A DNA stretch of 64,000 bases from NCBI GenBank assembly GCA_964016885.1, contig OZ024758.1, positions 24,118,001 through 24,182,000 on the forward strand, read 5' to 3'. Numbering within the stretch: the first letter of the stretch is position 1; the number at the start of each line of letters is the position of its first letter. Of this stretch, positions 3,662-62,780 are shown piece after piece. Position numbers and translations under genes: made by a program. The notes under the pieces were generated by a model that saw only the letters and a program-made list of their open reading frames with translations, was not told where the DNA came from and searched no databases. This DNA is from Eledone cirrhosa. Its lineage: Eukaryota.

Positions 3662-3790
3662 TATTGAACACTGAAATTGCCTGTCAGAATGAGAGTATAT
3701 ACTACTTCCGGTTAGTGTGTATATACATACATACATATATAGATATTAATTCAAAATATTAACAAAAATAGACATTCGTGTGATCAAGTA

Positions 3791-3857
3791 TATTTTATTA
3801 TACATATTTCAGAGGTACTGAGCTATCTTCAACAGTATGTCCTCATCAGATAAAATA
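3791..3857 (-). ncRNA. Type I hammerhead ribozyme
   Basis: tattttat-CTGATGA-ggaCatactg..cagtacCtct-GAAA-tatgta-TA/ataaaata. Lies within nested inverted repeats at 3757-4006. Confidence 0.8.
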
Positions 3858-4617
3858 AGATGATGCATAACATACCCTGACTTAGTAGATGGTTAAGATT
3901 CAGTCATGGTATTACCATGACTGAATCTTAACCATCTACTCAGTACCTCTGAAATATGTATAATAAAATATACTTGATCACACGAATGTCTATTTTTGTT
4001 AATATTAATAACTCCGGAAAACCATTTCTGTTGAGTGGTTCCAATCTATTGTAAAACTCATTGTTTGATTTATTCATTGAACCTTGTTTAACCTTTAAAT
4101 ACATATAGATATATATATATGTTCACACTCACACACGTCTCTCTCTCTCTCTCTCTGTAAATATACTTATATATTAGCTGGTAGTTTCATACTGCTGTGA
4201 AATGCAGTTCAGTGAAAAATATTAGTCATCTCTCAAGAAATCACATTATTCCACTCCACCTAATAATACTGCTACATAGAATGAAATAACATTTTTTTTT
4301 TTAATATGATGTTTATCTGCGTCGCTAAACGATGTTTCTAGTTTCTGGTTTTCTTGTGACAGAAGACCGTGAAGAAAAAAATCTCCTGTTTCGATTCACA
4401 CGGACTCAACTTCCAATAAATTATATAATTATATATATATATATATATATATGAGGAGAAGAAGATGTCCTCTGACACTGAAATTCGTTTGTTTAAATTC
4501 ATATGATTCCAGTTCCTCAATGAAACAACAACCCAACCAGGAACTGGGCTTATCAGAGTATTGACAAAGTTATACACCTCAACAACATGTGTACTCGTCT
4601 CTACCACAATAATTCGG

Positions 4618-8627: not shown

Positions 8628-9437
8628 ATATATATATATTATATATATATATTATATATATATTATATATATATATTATATATATATATTATATATATAT
8701 ATTATATATATATATATATTATATATATATATTATATATATATATTATATATATATATTATATATATATATTATATATATATTATATATATATTATATAT
8801 ATATTATATATATATATTATATATATATATTATATATATATATTATATATATATATTATATATATTATATATATTATATATATATTATATATATTATATA
8901 TATATTATATATATATATATTATATATATTATATATATATATTATATATATATATTATATATATATATTATATATATATTATATATATATTATATATATA
9001 TTATATATATATATTATATATATATATTATATATATTATATATATATATTATATATATATTATATATATATTATATATATATATTATATATATATTATAT
9101 ATATTATATATATATATTATATATATATTATATATATATATTATATATATATATTATATATATATTATATATATTATATATATATATTATATATATATAT
9201 TATATATATATATTATATATATATTATATATATATATTATATATATATATTATATATATATATATATATTATATATATATATTATATATATATTATATAT
9301 ATATTATATATATATTATATATATATATTATATATATATTATATATATATTATATATATATATTATATATATATATTATATATATATTATATATATATAT
9401 TATATATATATATTATATATATATTATATATATATAT

Positions 9438-9469
<32 letters not shown>

Positions 9470-9490
9470 ATTATATATATATATATTATA

Positions 9491-9533
<43 letters not shown>

Positions 9534-9983
9534 ATTTTATATATATTATATATATATATTATATATATATATTATATATATATATTATATATATATTATA
9601 TATATATATTATATATATATATTATATATATATATATATTATATATATATATTANNNNNNNNNNNNNNNNNNNNNNNNNNNNNNNNNNNNNNNNNNNNNN
9701 NNNNNNNNNNNNNNNNNNNNNNNNNNNNNNNNNNNNNNNNNNNNNNNNNNNNNNNNNNNNNNNNNNNNNNNNNNNNNNNNNNNNNNNNNNNNNNNNNNNN
9801 NNNNNNNNNNNNNNNNNNNNNNNNNNNNNNNNNNNNNNNNNNNNNNNNNNNNNNATATATTATATATATATATTATATATATATTATATATATATTATAT
9901 ATATATATATTATATATATATATTATATATATATTATATATATATATTATATATATATATTATATATATTATATATATATAAT

Positions 9984-10015
<32 letters not shown>

Positions 10016-10271
10016 ATTATATATATATATATTATATATATATTATATATATATTATTATATATATATTATATATATATATTTTATATATATTATATATA
10101 TATATTATATATATATATTATATATATATATTATATATATATTATATATATATATTATATATATATTATATATATATATATATTATATATATATATTATA
10201 TATATATATTATATATATATATATTATATATATATATTATATATATATATATATTATATATATATATATAT

Positions 10272-10302
<31 letters not shown>

Positions 10303-10325
10303 ATATATTATATATATATATATAT

Positions 10326-10356
<31 letters not shown>

Positions 10357-10422
10357 ATATATATATATATATTATATATATATATTATATATATATTATA
10401 TATATATTATATATATATATTT

Positions 10423-10456
<34 letters not shown>

Positions 10457-10655
10457 ATATATTATATATATATATTATATATATATATTATATATATATA
10501 TATTATATATATATATTATATATATATATATATTATATATATTATATATATATATTATATATATATATATATTATATATATTATATATATATATTATATA
10601 TATATATATATTATATATATTATATATTATATATATATTATATATATATATTATA

Positions 10656-10695
<40 letters not shown>

Positions 10696-10763
10696 TATAT
10701 ATATATTATATATATATATTATATATATATATTATATATATATATATATTATTATATATATAT

Positions 10764-10795
<32 letters not shown>

Positions 10796-11142
10796 ATTAT
10801 ATATATATATTATATATTATATATATATATTATATATATATATATATTATATTATATATATATATATATTATATATATATATTATATATATATTATATAT
10901 ATATATTATATATATATATATTATATATATTATATATATATTATATATATTATATATATATTATATATATTATATATATATTATATATATTATATATATA
11001 TTATATATTATATATATATTATATATTATATATATATTATATATTATATATATATTATATATATATTATATATATTATATATATATTTTTTGTATATATT
11101 ATATAATATATATATTATATATATATATAATATATAATATAT

Positions 11143-11185
<43 letters not shown>

Positions 11186-11256
11186 TATAATATATATAAT
11201 ATATATATAATATATATATAATATATATTATATATATATATATAATATATATAATA

Positions 11257-11289
<33 letters not shown>
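8628..11289. repeat. (TA)n/(TTA)-interrupted microsatellite containing a 200-N assembly gap (9655-9854)
   Basis: Direct reading. Confidence 0.97.
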
Positions 11290-11328
11290 GTAATAAGCGA
11301 AAGATATATACTTTATATCATCACTATT

Positions 11329-11337
11329 TATTTCATT

Positions 11338-11382
<45 letters not shown>

Positions 11383-11441
11383 CGGAGGTGCAGAAATTTA
11401 TGTTTAACATAAATCAGAGCATGCCCTCAACAGACAAAATA
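11329..11441 (-). ncRNA. Degenerate hammerhead whose helix III palindrome has expanded into a (TA)n tract
   Basis: tattttgt-CTGTTGA-gggCatgc..gcacCtcc-GAAA-(TA)~22-atgaaata. Core carries an A6-to-U change. Confidence 0.75.
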
Positions 11442-11824
11442 TGTGAGATTTATAATTTTTTCATGATACACCAGCAACAGCGATCTTGATAGATCACTGA
11501 CAAGCAAGTATATAATGGGAAGATATATATATATAGTGTCTGTGTGTAGTATACAAAAGCAGCGAAGTTTACAAGTTGTTGAAATTCTTCCGATATATAT
11601 CTCATAAGGCCTGTTTATTGCAATAAGTGTTGATGTTAATCACTTCATCGTCATCATGAGATACGGAGTGGACAGAATTGGCAGAACGCCGAATTAATTA
11701 ACTAAAGTTATTAAGTTTAAATCATTACAGAATTAGTTTTCATGTTTGACCCTCTAGCCATACTGGAATCTATTCCGTTAATTTACACCGACAAAAATTA
11801 ATTTGGAGCTTAAGAAAAAGAAAG

Positions 11825-12389
11825 TGAATTGGCAGTATCGGTAGAGGGTTGGACGCCATGCTTTCTAGCATAGTTCCGTCCCTTTACAGTCTGAGTTCAA
11901 ATCCCGCCTAGGTTAACTTTGCCTTTCATCCTTACGGGGGTCGATAAAATAAAGTACCAGTAATGTACTGGAGTAATTGCTGACCTTGTGTCTAAAGTAG
12001 AAACAATTATATCCTAGTATCGGTAGAGGGTCGGTCGCCGTGCTTTGAAGCACATAGAGTTACCTCCCTGTATGATCTGAGTTCAAATCCCGCCGAGGTT
12101 AACTTTGCCTTTCATATTACGGGGTCGATAAAATAAAGTACCAGTGATACACTGGGATAATTGCTGGCCTTGTGCCAAAAGTAGAAACAATTATTTCCTA
12201 AATCATTGTCAATCTTCCGTTTCTTCTTCCTAATCCTCATTATGTTTTGTCGAGTTACGTCCCTTGCCATTCTTAGTTCGAATCCCGCCGAGGTTAACTT
12301 TGCCTTTCATCCTTACGGGGTCGATAAAATAAAGTACCAGTAATGTACTGGGTAATTGCTGGCCTTGTGCCAAATGTAGAAACAATTAT
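11825..12389 (+). mobile_element. Three same-orientation SINE family 1 copies
   Basis: Consensus matches at ~11825-12010, ~12017-12193 and ~12255-12389. Confidence 0.9.
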
Positions 12390-12553
12390 GTTTCGTAGAA
12401 CGATATTTGAGATATGCCACAGATAATCTATATTAAAATATCTGTTGAACTCGTGGAACAACTCAAATTTATCTCCTCAATAACTCTGTTATTTACGTAA
12501 ACAACAGCTTGCGTTCATTTTTTTACACTGACCGACATATGGGATAGGTGCGT

Positions 12554-12959: not shown

Positions 12960-18124
<5,165 letters not shown>

Positions 18125-26301: not shown

Positions 26302-27189
26302 ATCCATAACAAAAAAATAGAAACAGACATATACTACAAGCCCACAGACTCCAAGCAATATCTCCCCTTCAACTCTTGCCACCCTAGACACGTTAAAATT
26401 AATATTCCCTACAACTTAGCCAAGAGAATCTGTACTATAGTCTCCAATAAAAACATCTGCTACTTACGGCTACAAGAACTAAAGGACACACTCATAGGCA
26501 GGGACTACCCTGCATCACTAATTGACAATGGAATCCAACGTGCCCTAAAACTCAGTACCCAGGACCTTAGACACCCTAAAGTAAATCAACCAAAACTAAA
26601 AGCTCTTCCATACATCTCCACACACAACCCCCTCAACAATGAGGCCTTTGACACCATCCTCCAGAACATCCCTGTATTGAAAAAGGACCATAGAATGAAC
26701 CAAATTCTACGAACACACGATATCATAAAGAGCAAAAGACAATCCAAGTCAATGGAAAACATCTTAACACATGCCAAAGTACTGCCAACCACAACAACGA
26801 AACCCACAGTAAAAAAATGCGATAGACCCAACTGTGGCATTTGCATCAACCTAATAGAGGGTTCGGAATTCTATTTCAAAGATGGACAACGTTTTATAGT
26901 AAAACACAATTTCACATGTGCATCGGAAAATCTAATATATGTATTAACTTGTTCAGGTTGTCGAGAACAATACATAGGCAAGACCAAAACCAGACTCCGC
27001 CAACGCATGACTGTCCATAGATCCCAAATTAAAATACGGGAATACAGGAAAATACCACTGAGTGAACACATTGATACCTGTGCCGCCCAAAATCATCCCA
27101 ACTTCAGAATCTTTCCCCTCTACAAATTTAAAGATAATGCCACCCACACCCAGCGCATCAGCAAGGAATCTTACTTCATTAACAAATAA
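26298..27189 (+). mobile_element. Penelope-like element 3' fragment: RT thumb, Cys-rich linker and GIY-YIG endonuclease (Neptune-like)
   Basis: TDIYYKPTDSKQYL...HPRHVKINIPY, KKCDRPNCGIC, and NLIYVLTCSGCREQYIGKT...LRQRMTVH. 5'-truncated at (TA)n. Confidence 0.93.
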
Positions 27190-32213: not shown

Positions 32214-32476
32214 TAAAAATATATATATATATATATAAGTAGAAGGGATATTTAATTTGTTGGAAATACAACAAATATAAATGTTTATAACAGATTCAGA
32301 GCACCCGACAGAATTCTGGAGTAAATAGTCAATGATATTAAATAAATGGAAACTATATTAATAAAACCATATTTATTCTATTATATATATTTCACGTCCC
32401 TTTCCAGGGATAACTTGAACTGTTAAGGTATATTATCCTTGGTTATGTCAAATATTTATAAAACATTTTGTATTTG

Positions 32477-32537
32477 TATTTTATCTGATGATAGCGTACC
32501 AAAATGTTGGTAACCTTGAAATAAATATAATAGAATA
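32477..32537 (+). ncRNA. Type I hammerhead ribozyme with slightly decayed stems
   Basis: tattttat-CTGATGA-tagCgtaccaa..ttggtaaCctt-GAAA-taaata-TA/atagaata. An inverted 3'-half copy lies at ~32330-32393. Confidence 0.78.
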
Positions 32538-32600
32538 AATATGGTTTTATAAATATAGTTTCCATTTATTTAATATCATTATAGAGAGAGAGAGAGAGAG

Positions 32601-34719: not shown

Positions 34720-35910
34720 TGGTCGAATTCAAATACCGCTGAGGTTAGCTTTGCTTTTCATTCTTACGAAGTGGATAAAATAAAACATCAGTATTGCATT
34801 GGGATCGATATAATAGAGCCCCCCCCCCCCCCCACCACCACCACCACCACCACCACCATATTGCTGGCCTTGTGCCTATAGTAAGAAATCATTATTTATG
34901 TAGCTAATGTAAATATCTATTATTTATATAGCAAATGTAAATTTTATTATTTAGCTAATGTAAATTTCTATTATTTATATAGCAAGGGTGGTGGATTGGC
35001 AGTATCGGTAGAGTCTCGGATGCCATGCTTTCCAGCATAGTTACGTCCCTTTGCGATCTGAGTTCAAATCCCGCCGAGGTTGACTTTGCCTTTCATCCTT
35101 ACGGGGTCGATAAAATAAAGTACCAGTAATGCACTGGTAATTTGCTGGCCTTGTGCCTAAAGTAGAAACAATTATTTATATAGCAAATGTAAATTTTATT
35201 ATTTAGCTAATGTAAATTTCTATTATTTATGTAGCTAATGAAATTTACTGTACATACGAGATATGTCTCAAAATTCTTGAGAACGTCATCTAGATCATGT
35301 GATCTCGTCAAATATATAAACTTGGTTCTATTTTTCTCAATAGGTTCTATTTTAAGTACAGCAAAACTGAGAGAGGTGAGTTTCATGCACGAGTAACACG
35401 CCGTAGTGTAAAGACTGAACACGAATTTATGACCTGATTCTTGAGAGCTGGAGTTTTATCAACTTAACTATCTTAGATACTTCACTCTTTAATCACCTAC
35501 AACTATTATAAAGCTGAGGGCGGTGGATTGGCAGTATTGGTGGAGGGTCGGACGCCATGCTTTCCAGCATAGTTACGTCCCTTTACGATCCGAGTTCAAA
35601 TCCCGCCGAGGTTGACTTTGCCTTTCATCCTTACGGGGTCGATAAAATAAAGTACCAGTAATGTACTGGGATAATTGCTGGCCTTGTGCCTAAAGTAGGA
35701 ACAATTATCTATAAAAGGCAGGGCGGTGGATTGGCAGTATCGGTAGAGGGTCGGACGCCATGCTTTCCAGCATAGTTACGTCCCTTTACGATCCGAGTTC
35801 AAATCCCGCCGAGGTTGACTTTGCCTTTCATCCTTACGGGGTCGATAAAATAAAGTACCAGTAATGCACTGGGTAATCGCTGGCCTTGTGCCTAAAGTAG
35901 AAACAATTAT
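34720..35910 (+). mobile_element. SINE family 1 cluster: 34720-34880 (old), 34986-35175, 35518-35708, 35720-35910
   Basis: Near-identical ~190-bp copies with A and B boxes and a Nin/Deu-like core (GCCTTTCATCCTTACGGGGTCGATAAAATAAAGTACC). Confidence 0.92.
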
Positions 35911-44471: not shown

Positions 44472-45479
44472 TCTATATATTACTAAAAGTCTGTGATTGC
44501 TTGCTTGTCTGTAATGTAATACAGCCAAAAGGGAGCATAATGGGGAAAATACTTTGAAAGGAAGTTGCCCCTGAAATGGAAATACAAATGGATTAAAACA
44601 AGTTTCGCATAAATCGGAACACGGGTTCCCGAGATACGGGGTTTTTCCGGGTACCTTCATGAACAAAGAGAGAGAAAGATAGAGAGGAAGAGATAGTGGT
44701 TGTGAGAGGGTAGATTGAAAGAGAGACATAGAGAGAGGGAGAGGAGAATGGGGGGAGAGAATGGTGGTGGTGGTGGTGGTGGTGGGTGGGTGTGTGTGTG
44801 TGTGTGTTGGGGGGTCTATGACCAGTGTATATAGATCACAGACACCCATTATATATATATATATATATATATAGTAGAAGGGGTATTTAATTTGTTGGAA
44901 GTACGACAAATATAAATGTTTATAACTGATTTAGAGCACTCAACAGTTTACTGGAGTAAATATTCAATGATATTAAATATATATATGTTTACACACACAT
45001 ATACATACATACACCCACACTCGTATATATATGGGCCTTAAATATATATATGTATACACACACATATACATACATGCACACACGTATATATATATATGGG
45101 CCTTCCACATTATATACATGTCTGTGTAAGGGTGGTGGATTGGCAATATCGGTAGAGGTTCGGACGCCATGCTTTGCAGCATAGAGTGACGGCCCTTTAT
45201 GATCTGAATTCAAATCCCGCCGAGGTTAACTTTGCCTTTCATCCTTACGCGGTGGATAAAATAAAGTACCAGTCACGCACTGGGGGTCGATTTAATCGAC
45301 TCTCCCCTCCCCCTCCAAAAAAAAAATTGCAGGCCTTGTGCCTATATAAAAAAAAATTAAAAAAAACCCATTATATACATGTCTGTATATTCTAATTATT
45401 TACAAATTATTTTTAAGTGAACATGATTTTTAAAAATATTTTGAAGTGAATGTAACCCAACGGGTGACGGGTGGTCTAG
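44472..45479 (+). mobile_element. Non-autonomous Helitron with nested insertions (pLTR fragment, SINE at 45129-45345)
   Basis: 5' TCTATATATTACTAAAAG...TTGCTTGTCTG, 3' cccaacgggtgacggg-tggt-CTAG followed by T. Confidence 0.6.
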
Positions 45480-45487
45480 TAGATAAT

Positions 45488-46411
45488 TGTTTCTACTATT
45501 GGCACAAGGCCAGCAATTACCCAGTGCATTACTGGTACTTTATTTATCAACCCCGTAAGGATGAAAGGCAAAGTTAACCTTGGCGGGATTTGAACATAGA
45601 ATGGCAAGGGCCGTAACTCTATGCGTCAAAGCATGGTATCCGACCCTCTACTGATACTGCCAATCCACCGCCCTATATAATTGTTTCTACTTTAGACACA
45701 AGGCCAGCAATTACCCAGTGCATTACTGGTACTTTATTTTATCGACCCCGTAAGGATGAAAGGCAAAGTCAATCGCGGCGGGATTTGAACTCGTATCGTA
45801 AAGGGACGTAACTATGCTGGAAAGCATGGCGTCCGACCCTCTACTGATACTGCCAATCCACCGCCCTAACATCGTGTCCGACCCTCTACTGATAGTGCCA
45901 ATCCACCGTCCTAACATGGCGTCCGACCCTCTACCGATAGTGCCAATCCACCGCCCTAACATGGCGTCCGACCCTCTACCGATACTGCCAATCCACCACC
46001 CTAACATGGCGTCCGACCCTCTACCGATAGTGCCAATCCACCGCCCTAACATGGCGTCCGACCCTCTACCAATACTGCCAATCCACCGCCTTAACATGGC
46101 GTCCGACCCTCTACCGATACTGCCAATCCACCGCCCTAACATGGCGTCCGACCCTCTACCGATACTGCCAATCCACCGCCTTAACATGGCGTCCGACCCT
46201 CTACCGATACTGCCAATCCACCGCCCTAACATGGCGTCCGACCCTCTACCGATACTGCCAATCCACCGCCCTAACATTGAGTCCGACCCTCCACCGATAC
46301 TGCCAATCCACCGCCCTAACATGGCGTCCGACCTTCCACCGATACTGCCAATCCACCGCCCTAACATGGCGTCCGACCCTCTACCGATACTGCCAATCTA
46401 CCGCCATTACT
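45488..46411 (-). mobile_element. Composite SINE insertion: two family 1 SINEs plus head array, flanked by a 17-bp direct repeat
   Basis: gtggtctagtagataat at 45471-45487 and 46412-46428. Confidence 0.85.
45825..46405 (-). repeat. 13 x 45-bp tandem array of the SINE 5' head (A box)
   Basis: Unit catggcgtccgaccctctaccgatactgccaatccaccgccctaa, no spacers. Confidence 0.95.
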
Positions 46412-50841: not shown

Positions 50842-51307
50842 GGGTATCAAAAAATAAATATGGTATTTATAGGTCTCTACAAGTGGTAGGAGGGGGTGGG
50901 GAGTGGGATGGGTGCAGGTCGTTGGTTGATAGAAAAGGGAATTCATTAAAAGCTAATTCTACAAAGCTATAGTTTATTTTTATTTTTATTTATTTATGTT
51001 TTTAGAGTAACAAGGGCAGACAGAATTCTATAAACAGGTTCCGGATGGCATACCATTCCTTGTCAGTAAGTTTCTCTTAAGCTAACAGATGTCTATAAAG
51101 TCAGTGGGGGGTCAGTCATGGTCGATAGAATTAAAGAAAAGGGAGATTCTTTAAAAGCTAAAGTCATATATATATATGCAAAAGTTCTATTTAAATTGTT
51201 GGGATACAACAAGCAAATATTTTTATAACTGATATAAAGCACTCGACAAGTATTTGGAGTAGATATACGATATTAACAAATGGAAACTATATTTATAAAA
51301 CCATATT

Positions 51308-51372
51308 TATTTCATTATACATATTTCAAGGATACCATGTTAAATTATGGTATGCTTTCATCAGACAAAATA
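51308..51372 (-). ncRNA. Type I hammerhead, left arm of inverted pair 51268-51582
   Basis: tattttgt-CTGATGA-aagCataccat..atggtatCctt-GAAA-tatgta-TA/atgaaata. Confidence 0.85.
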
Positions 51373-51477
51373 CAATATATACCAGTTTTATAAATAAATA
51401 TTGACATGTCTTCCAAAAGTAACGGTTGCATTTTGAAAGGGTACGTCAATGTTTATTTATAAAACTGGTATATATTG

Positions 51478-51542
51478 TATTTTGTCTGATGAAGGCACAC
51501 CATAATTTAACATGGTATCCTTGAAATATGTATAATGAAATA
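51478..51542 (+). ncRNA. Type I hammerhead, right arm of inverted pair
   Basis: tattttgt-CTGATGA-aggCacaccat..atggtatCctt-GAAA-tatgta-TA/atgaaata. Confidence 0.83.
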
Positions 51543-51581
51543 AATATTTTTTTATAAATATAGTTTCCATTTGTTAATATC

Positions 51582-51617
<36 letters not shown>

Positions 51618-62282: not shown

Positions 62283-62321
<39 letters not shown>

Positions 62322-62360
62322 GATATTAATAAATGGACACTATATTTATAAAACCATATT

Positions 62361-62421
62361 TATTCTATTATATATATTTCAAGGGTACCAAAACTGTGGT
62401 ACGCTCTCATCAGATAAAATA
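62361..62421 (-). ncRNA. Type I hammerhead, left arm of inverted repeat 62319-62691
   Basis: tattttat-CTGATGA-gagCgtacca..tggtacCctt-GAAA-tatata-TA/atagaata. Confidence 0.87.
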
Positions 62422-62780
62422 CAAAGTTTGTTTTATAAATATTGACCTAAGTATTGACATATCCAGGAACGAGACCTTCACGGTTCAAGTATTACCTGGA
62501 TAGTTAGGTAAAACTTGAAACTATCCAGGTAAAACTTGAACCATTAAGGTCTCATTCCTGGATATGTCAATATTTATAAAAAAAACTTTGGTATGCGCTC
62601 ATCAGATAAAATACAAAGTTTTGGTACCCTTGAAATATATATAATAGAATAAATATGGTTTTATAAATATAGTGTCCATTTATTAATATCATTGATATTA
62701 TACTCCAGAAAACTTGTCGAGTGCTTTGAATCTGTTATAAATATATTTGTTGGATTACCACCAAATTAAATATCCCTTTG

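What the first reader, a model, noticed from the sequence alone, without database searches (positions are those of the whole stretch)
11329..11441. Ribozyme helix III as a microsatellite seed
Seen: on the minus strand, stem I, the core, stem II and GAAA are followed by ~44 nt of (TA)n, then the matching stem I strand ATGAAATA. Sister copies have only TATATA-TA here. Inference: the dimerisation palindrome slipped into a microsatellite, so these elements may create (TA)n tracts and therefore new insertion targets. A longer (UA)n could also fold helix III intramolecularly and remove the need for dimerisation, although this copy has a core mutation (CUGUUGA).
Basis: partly seen in the sequence, partly recalled or inferred. 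Interest (0 to 1): 0.72.

Follow-up and report, generated by a model that had tools for sequence, protein, structure and literature searches.

The report
Ribozyme loop grown into TA microsatellite
In one mutated copy of a common jumping-gene end, the 8-letter TA loop of a hammerhead RNA motif is 43 letters long, likely because it slipped during DNA copying after the element landed, which is a known way for repeats to arise inside mobile DNA and here looks like a rare accident.

Summary
On the minus strand, stem I, a CUGUUGA core, stem II and GAAA are followed by 43 nt of (TA)15T(TA)6, then ATGAAATA. All 13 other loop units in the window have 8 nt, as do 4 of 4 informative contig ends of the same subfamily. 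The halves join with nothing lost, carry a matching stem I variant, and the 3' end lies where sisters end, so two separate insertions are unlikely. It is a ~230-bp decayed end of a Penelope-like retroelement lying between TA tracts. Slippage after insertion is the best reading (0.6). No intermediate lengths were seen, so a one-step TA gain or assembly inflation remains; reads could not check the length. Folding predicts a stable monomer helix III (-11.8 versus +4.7 kcal/mol), but A6 is lost. The wider claim is weak: this loop is 1 of 38 isolated long TA tracts here, and nothing has inserted in it. Microsatellite birth inside retrotransposons is known; I found no paper on it in a ribozyme loop. 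The scan noted such hammerhead-bearing ends elsewhere in this genome; the notes I saw mention no expanded loop.

The parts
11290..11519 (-). Whole insertion: solo, gene-less hammerhead-bearing end (pLTR-like) of a Penelope-like retroelement, about 230 bp
   Evidence: 3' end 47 nt after the predicted cleavage site; contigs of other copies stop matching at 11512-11515 and run into TA or unrelated DNA
11434..11441 (-). Stem I, 5' arm (TATTTTGT); pairing can extend about 7 bp further out
11427..11433 (-). Catalytic core, CUGUUGA, with A6 replaced by U at 11430
   Evidence: other copies have A here in 6, 10 and 9 contigs of X1, X2, X3, and one 453-nt contig identical to the window carries the U
11384..11426 (-). 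Stem II, 43 nt, longer than in the window sisters
11380..11383 (-). GAAA box of the core
11337..11379 (-). Expanded helix III loop, (TA)15 T (TA)6, 43 nt against 8 nt; ends in the AUA triplet, predicted cleavage between 11337 and 11336
11329..11336 (-). Stem I, 3' arm (ATGAAATA)
11290..11328 (-). Rest of the element's 3' end, up to the junction with the TA array
   Evidence: 47 nt from cleavage site to TA, against 48, 50 and 58 nt in the short class of sisters
8628..11289 (.). Degenerate (TA)n array of about 2.7 kb, with a 200-N gap at 9655-9854; 3' flank and likely target
11523..11535 (.). Short TA tract (6.5 units) flanking the 5' end

Best explanation
This is one mutated copy of a hammerhead-bearing end of a Penelope-like retroelement whose 8-nt TATATATA loop is 43 nt long, likely because the loop expanded by DNA polymerase slippage after the copy had inserted. 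Steps. (1) Shown: the family carries a type I hammerhead fold with an 8-nt self-complementary helix III. (2) From the literature: such short palindromic helices let two ribozymes pair and cut as a dimer (PMC4209133). (3) Inferred: (TA)4 sits at the 4-5 unit threshold where dinucleotides begin to slip (PMC3812793), so each perfect-loop copy is a proto-microsatellite. (4) Inferred: in a genomic copy no longer under selection the loop grew, faster as it lengthened, to the 10-25 units usual for TA tracts here, and took one single-base break. (5) Predicted: the long loop folds helix III without a partner, but the A6U change most likely leaves the ribozyme nearly inactive, so the gain has no effect and was not passed on.
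For: Exact fit: GAAA and ATGAAATA abut the tract as they abut the 8-nt loop in 4 of 4 informative contig ends of the same subfamily (7 of 18 loose-end rows shown cover the loop, 5 distinct sequences, 1 cut short; 8 rows not shown). Stem I variant: G in the 5' arm and G in the 3' arm occur together in 3 of 8 core-bearing sisters and in this copy; only 3 of 12 family 3' arms have that G. The 3' end falls 47 nt after the cleavage site, as in the short class of sisters (48, 50, 58). No copy in the window ends or starts at the loop. The copy is decayed: it differs from sister contigs at 5-10 of 53-61 letters and has private changes at 11430, 11450, 11469, 11480. The genome grows TA tracts readily: 38 of 106 TA runs of 4 or more units outside the big arrays reach 10-25 units. 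Helix III as a hairpin: -11.8 kcal/mol against +4.7; P(A15.1-U16.1) 0.33 against at most 0.001 in 7 sisters.
Against: No loop of 5-20 units in 13 window units (9 insertions) or 4 contig ends; stepwise growth would predict some, though the sample is small and contigs drop long repeats. The tract length is unverified (skipped 11292-11388), and the copy lies 47 nt from a gapped, noisy TA array. The arm-pairing test alone was not significant (own pair -7.4 kcal/mol, 183 of 1000 shuffles as good; the 5' arm of copy 3849 pairs better with this 3' arm, -15.1). Similarity of the distal 3' end to window sisters was not significant (67-257 of 1000 shuffles).
Confidence: 0.6

Rival explanations
1. One-step gain: the TATATATA loop was itself used as a target by a (TA)n-seeking retroelement that left only TA (a tail-only, aborted insertion), or TA was copied in by template switching from the 2.7-kb array 47 nt away.
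For: No intermediate lengths. The length matches tracts at element junctions (10-25 units). Several PLE clades target (TA)n (PMC8557442, passages and section 11). L1 can insert a pure poly(A) tract when severely truncated (PMC3812793, section 4). The single phase break could be a junction.
Against: No trace of foreign sequence in the tract. Slippage rates rise steeply with length (PMC3812793), which can also leave few intermediates. A TT break is common in the neighbouring array (8.5 TT/AA per 100 nt).
Confidence: 0.2
2. Assembly or sequencing artefact: the real loop is short and the tract was inflated or mis-joined beside the gapped TA array.
For: 200-N gap inside the adjacent array. The contig identical to the locus starts at 11396 and does not reach the tract. 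The 47-nt 3' piece has TA on both sides.
Against: Thirteen other loops, several next to TA arrays, are assembled at 8 nt. The locus itself, with its core mutation, is reproduced by a 453-nt contig with 0 differences (this run may be the source sample). An error from 8 to 43 nt is large.
Confidence: 0.1
3. Two insertions side by side in one TA tract: one copy ending at the cleavage site, another starting there.
For: Self-cleavage would produce RNA ends at exactly this point. The arm-pairing and distal-similarity tests were not significant.
Against: 0 of 14 window units end or start at the loop. Both junctions are exact, in one orientation, with the matching stem I variant.
Confidence: 0.05
4. 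The element's telomerase-related reverse transcriptase stuttered on the (UA)4 template while inserting, so the tract was born long.
For: PLE RTs share ancestry with telomerase (PMC8557442, abstract). No intermediates. TA tracts flank most copies.
Against: Only 1 of 10 insertions in the window shows it, and that one is decayed. No direct evidence of reiterative copying.
Confidence: 0.05

Closest known systems
Type I hammerheads with a small palindromic helix III in PLE pseudo-LTRs (Cervera and de la Pena 2014, PMC4209133; read: parts 1-2 of 4, covering results and discussion)
   Same: Type I order, unpaired base next to stem II in some copies, palindromic helix III, mostly solo copies or close copies on opposite strands, predicted dimer activity. 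They report that lengthening helix III in a single motif gives some cleavage, mostly at non-physiological Mg2+.
   Different: Helix III here is a pure dinucleotide repeat, identical to the family's target repeat, and has grown five-fold in one copy; stem II is longer; A6 is lost. The parts read describe no natural repeat expansion of helix III.
Microsatellite birth from internal proto-microsatellites of L1 and Alu (Grandi and An 2013 as recalled, PMC3812793; read: passages and section 4); mini-me elements of dipterans (recalled; only the reference line was seen)
   Same: A short internal repeat of a retroelement expands after insertion in some copies; threshold of 4-5 units for dinucleotides.
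   Different: The seed here is a structural part of a ribozyme that selection keeps palindromic, and the product is the element's own target repeat.
C-terminal GIY-YIG PLEs that insert in (TA)n: Neptune and Hydra clades (Craig et al. 2021, PMC8557442; read: passages, section 11, one search of the supplement)
   Same: TA flanks, head-to-head truncated pairs, a tail at one end, hammerhead near the 3' end.
   Different: No ORF is attached to this copy, so the clade is open; the long-end class here extends about 80-90 nt beyond the short class, more than the 30-40 bp tail described.
Non-LTR retrozymes (PMC7229834, passages; bioRxiv 10.64898/2026.07.22.740005, part 1 of 5)
   Same: Short, non-coding, type I hammerhead, probable PLE origin.
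   Different: Not in tandem repeats here.

Membership tests
Type I hammerhead, PLE type | CUGANGA core | tested here: not met
   CUGUUGA in this copy; A6 present in 9 of 9 other core-bearing units and in sister contigs
Type I hammerhead, PLE type | GAAA box and NUH cleavage triplet | tested here: met
   GAAA 11383-11380; AUA before 11336
Type I hammerhead, PLE type | Stems I and II, with covariation in the family | tested here: met
   Stem I 100% paired, stem II 93.1%, 6 of 9 stem II pairs with two-sided changes in 8 sisters; both stems form in the constrained fold of this copy
Type I hammerhead, PLE type | Short palindromic helix III, unstable in a monomer | tested here: not met
   Met in sisters (+4.7 kcal/mol hairpin, -2.2 to -3.2 dimer duplex); here 43 nt and -11.8
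Type I hammerhead, PLE type | Match to an Rfam hammerhead model | tested here: not met
   No match at gathering score in the window, none up to E 10 for this copy or a sister pair
Type I hammerhead, PLE type | Self-cleavage | not testable with these tools
   Needs an in vitro assay; A6C cut activity in Mg2+ by orders of magnitude in another hammerhead (PMC7151607, passages); A6U is not tested there
Penelope-like element end (pLTR) | Head-to-head truncated pairs and two end classes | tested here: met
   4 inverted pairs among sisters; 3' ends at 47-58 or 135-144 nt. This copy is solo
Penelope-like element end (pLTR) | Insertion in (TA)n | tested here: met
   TA on both sides of this copy and behind most sisters
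Penelope-like element end (pLTR) | Physical link to an RT plus GIY-YIG ORF | tested here: inconclusive
   A PLE fragment lies at 26302-27189, 4.4 kb upstream of sister 31625 across a TA array; no sequence link to this subfamily was shown
Hydra clade | No CCHH motif, DKT motif, CxCX5C linker (PMC8557442 section 11) | tested here: inconclusive
   No ORF on this copy. The window's PLE fragment has a CX4CxxC linker and CCHH-type residues, and its relatives P0001 and P0003 have GLKF and DKG, which is Neptune/Nematis-like, not Hydra; it may not be the partner
Non-LTR retrozyme | Tandem head-to-tail units, each with a hammerhead | tested here: not met
   Solo or inverted copies only
TE-born microsatellite | Short repeat at the same position in unexpanded copies, long in some | tested here: met
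   8 nt in 13 of 13 window units and 4 of 4 contig ends, 43 nt here
TE-born microsatellite | Graded lengths and allelic polymorphism | tested here: inconclusive
   No intermediates in a small sample; repeat skipped; no genome held

The most novel reading that the evidence does not exclude
The (UA)4 helix III works as a mutable dial. A gain of only 3-4 units is predicted to free the ribozyme from needing a partner (P(A15.1-U16.1) 0.001 at 4 units, 0.20 at 7, 0.34 at 8), so intact-core copies with longer loops would cut as monomers, and loop expansion, possibly by the element's own telomerase-like RT, would keep supplying the family with fresh (TA)n targets: a self-seeding cycle that helps explain the TA load of this genome.
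Probability: 0.07. Interest if true: 0.65.

Novelty: new member of a known kind. Interest (0 to 1): 0.3.

Why it matters
As one copy it is a neat natural mutant: selection for a dimerising palindrome keeps a proto-microsatellite inside a ribozyme. With many copies sharing one 4-unit start, and TATGTATA copies as an internal control, the family would be a clean test of how TA microsatellites are born at the threshold length. The length series also gives a simple bench test of how much helix III a PLE hammerhead needs to cut alone, which bears on the open question of whether these ribozymes act as dimers. It does not, on present evidence, explain where the genome's TA tracts come from.

Tried and rejected
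No genome is held for this window, so the genome-wide table was not run. Rfam gave no hammerhead match. A pattern scan of metagenome contigs returned 117 stretches (45 of 64 parts scanned); 1 of 117 passed a loose stem filter and it has weak pairing and no family likeness, so all were treated as chance. The PLE protein found 1 weak bacterial hit among 49 candidates in genome contigs, not used. No RNA holder was listed, which says nothing on expression. Laying contigs over the tract gave no cover because the repeat was skipped. Arm duplex energies and distal 3' similarity were not significant. The unconstrained fold of the copy puts the TA hairpin and stem II first and does not form stem I. MAFFT misaligned the tract onto the sisters' 3' ends, so that alignment was not used for counts. 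One search of the supplement of PMC8557442 found no hammerhead with this loop (1 hit, inside coding-like sequence). Paper searches for a ribozyme loop expanding as a microsatellite found none: (68 returned 0 papers); searches for mini-me found no usable paper. The library lacks most subscription papers, and bioRxiv supplements were not seen. Rejected: a chance motif (covariation, copy number); a retrozyme array (no tandem units); loops as a main source of TA tracts (1 of 38).

Full report
Observation. The minus strand at 11441-11329 reads as described: stem I arm TATTTTGT (11441-11434), core CTGTTGA (11433-11427), a 43-nt stem II, GAAA (11383-11380), a TA tract (11379-11337) and ATGAAATA (11336-11329). 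The tract is 43 nt, (TA)15 T (TA)6. A scan of both strands found 14 GAAA-loop-arm units in the window; the other 13 all have an 8-nt loop: 7 TATATATA, 5 TATGTATA, 1 TAAATATA. Eight of the 13 are halves of four head-to-head pairs, so they stand for 9 insertions. Rfam gave no hammerhead hit, so the assignment rests on the core and on pairing: in 8 core-bearing sisters 96.3% of 136 cells pair, and 6 of 9 stem II pairs change on both sides, above all 500 shuffles and all slid controls (relatedness can inflate this).

What it is. The copy is about 230 bp (11290-11519) with no ORF. It has a 6.5-unit TA tract at its 5' side and a 2.7-kb degenerate TA array, holding a 200-N gap, at its 3' side. Sisters end either 48-58 nt or 135-144 nt after the predicted cleavage site, mostly in TA; this copy ends at 47 nt (of 11 units measured, one runs into a GA tract and one gave no TA run of 5 units). 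Head-to-head truncated pairs, a tail at one end, TA targets and a hammerhead near the 3' end are the features given for endonuclease-bearing Penelope-like elements (PMC8557442, passages and section 11). A truncated PLE ORF with a GIY-YIG domain lies at 26302-27189; its motifs are Neptune/Nematis-like, but I could not link it to this subfamily. The genome is animal: a named relative of that ORF is from an oyster, and 'octopus-like' comes from an earlier AI note that I did not check.

One element or two. The window sisters are a diverged subfamily. Closer relatives appear in contigs of runs X1-X3, which are one sample. Seven of the 18 loose-end rows shown cover the loop; they are 5 distinct sequences, one cut short, and the other 4 all read an 8-nt TATATATA followed by the start of the 3' arm (8 rows not shown). 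So the two sides of the tract are neighbours in this subfamily, and nothing is lost or doubled at either junction. The stem I variant with G in both arms occurs as a pair in 3 of 8 sisters and here; only 3 of 12 family 3' arms have it. No window copy ends or starts at the loop. Two tests did not help: arm duplex energy (183 of 1000 shuffles as good, and the 5' arm of copy 3849 pairs better with this 3' arm) and distal similarity. On balance one element.

How the tract arose. (TA)4 is at the 4-5 unit threshold for dinucleotide slippage, and internal proto-microsatellites of L1 and Alu are known to mature after insertion (PMC3812793, passages and section 4). The copy is decayed: it differs from sister contigs at 5-10 of 53-61 letters, with private changes including A6. 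Outside the big arrays 38 of 106 TA runs of 4 or more units reach 10-25 units, so 21 units is ordinary here. Slippage after insertion is therefore the best reading (0.6). Against it, no intermediate length was seen; contigs are biased against long repeats but would show 5-8 units. A one-step gain, by an aborted TA-targeted insertion or a template switch from the adjacent array, is the main rival (0.2). Artefact is possible (0.1): the contig identical to this locus covers 11396-11818 with 0 differences and confirms the core mutation, but stops short of the tract, and the second lay skipped 11292-11388.

The ribozyme. In 7 sisters helix III costs +4.7 kcal/mol as a hairpin and gains 2.2-3.2 as a dimer duplex, with P(A15.1-U16.1) at most 0.001. 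Here the hairpin is -11.8 and the probability 0.33. Varying the loop in this context gives 0.001, 0.008, 0.06, 0.20 and 0.34 at 4, 5, 6, 7 and 8 units, then a plateau. Two cautions. The published test of lengthening helix III in single PLE hammerheads gave only weak cleavage at high Mg2+ (PMC4209133). And A6 is lost: 9 of 9 other core-bearing window units and nearly all sister contig depth keep it, and A6C strongly lowered cleavage in Mg2+ in another hammerhead (PMC7151607, passages; A6U not tested there). The copy is most likely dead, and no expanded loop was seen in the sister contigs shown.

The wider claim. The loop tract is 1 of 38 isolated tracts of 10 or more units, in a window with about 17 kb of TA-rich arrays. 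One of 10 insertions expanded, and nothing is inserted in it. Loops can seed TA tracts, but here they are a minor source.

Novelty. Microsatellite birth inside retrotransposons and palindromic PLE hammerheads are both known. Searches found no paper joining the two; the library is partial. Earlier notes on this genome describe the same kind of element, one with a (UA)n stem III, and none of those shown mentions an expanded loop. Verdict: real, a new instance of a known process, interest 0.3; the bolder 'mutable dial and self-seeding' reading has probability about 0.07.

Noticed in passing
window 26302-27189 +: 5'-truncated PLE ORF (RT end, CX4CxxC linker, GIY-YIG), 60% identical to its best full-length relative P0001, starting at a 58-nt TA tract and followed by a 4.2-kb TA array and then hammerhead copy 31625.
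   Followed up: partly
window 1644, 3806, 3955, 51323, 51527: TATGTATA loops break the DNA repeat yet can still pair as an RNA dimer (-2.2 kcal/mol); they may be protected from slippage.
   Followed up: partly
window 3721-4007, 32331-32579, 51239-51616, 62288-62697: Four head-to-head pairs; where measured in both partners, one has the long 3' end (about 140 nt after the cleavage site) and the other the short end (about 50 nt).
   Followed up: partly
window 11512-11519; runs X1-X3: Contigs of other copies stop matching at the same place and continue in TA or in differing sequences, suggesting a defined 5' end of a short non-autonomous subfamily.
   Followed up: no
window 2674 +, 47413 -, 63974 -: A second hammerhead-like family with a short stem II and GAAACG after it.
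   Followed up: no
window 4623 +, 19333 +, 26012 +, about 63410 +: Further hammerhead-like cores of other families, with different helix III sequences (TATATATA, GATC, GAACTA, TGATCATA).
   Followed up: no
window 15843-17327 +: Long RT ORF fragment of a LINE (PF00078, E 1e-30) between two (TA)/(TATGTC)-type arrays.
   Followed up: no
window 11824-12398, 35517-35910, 45125-46405 and others: Abundant ~190-200-bp SINE-like repeat, often in tandem; a 45-bp piece of it forms a 13-copy minisatellite at 45825-46405.
   Followed up: no
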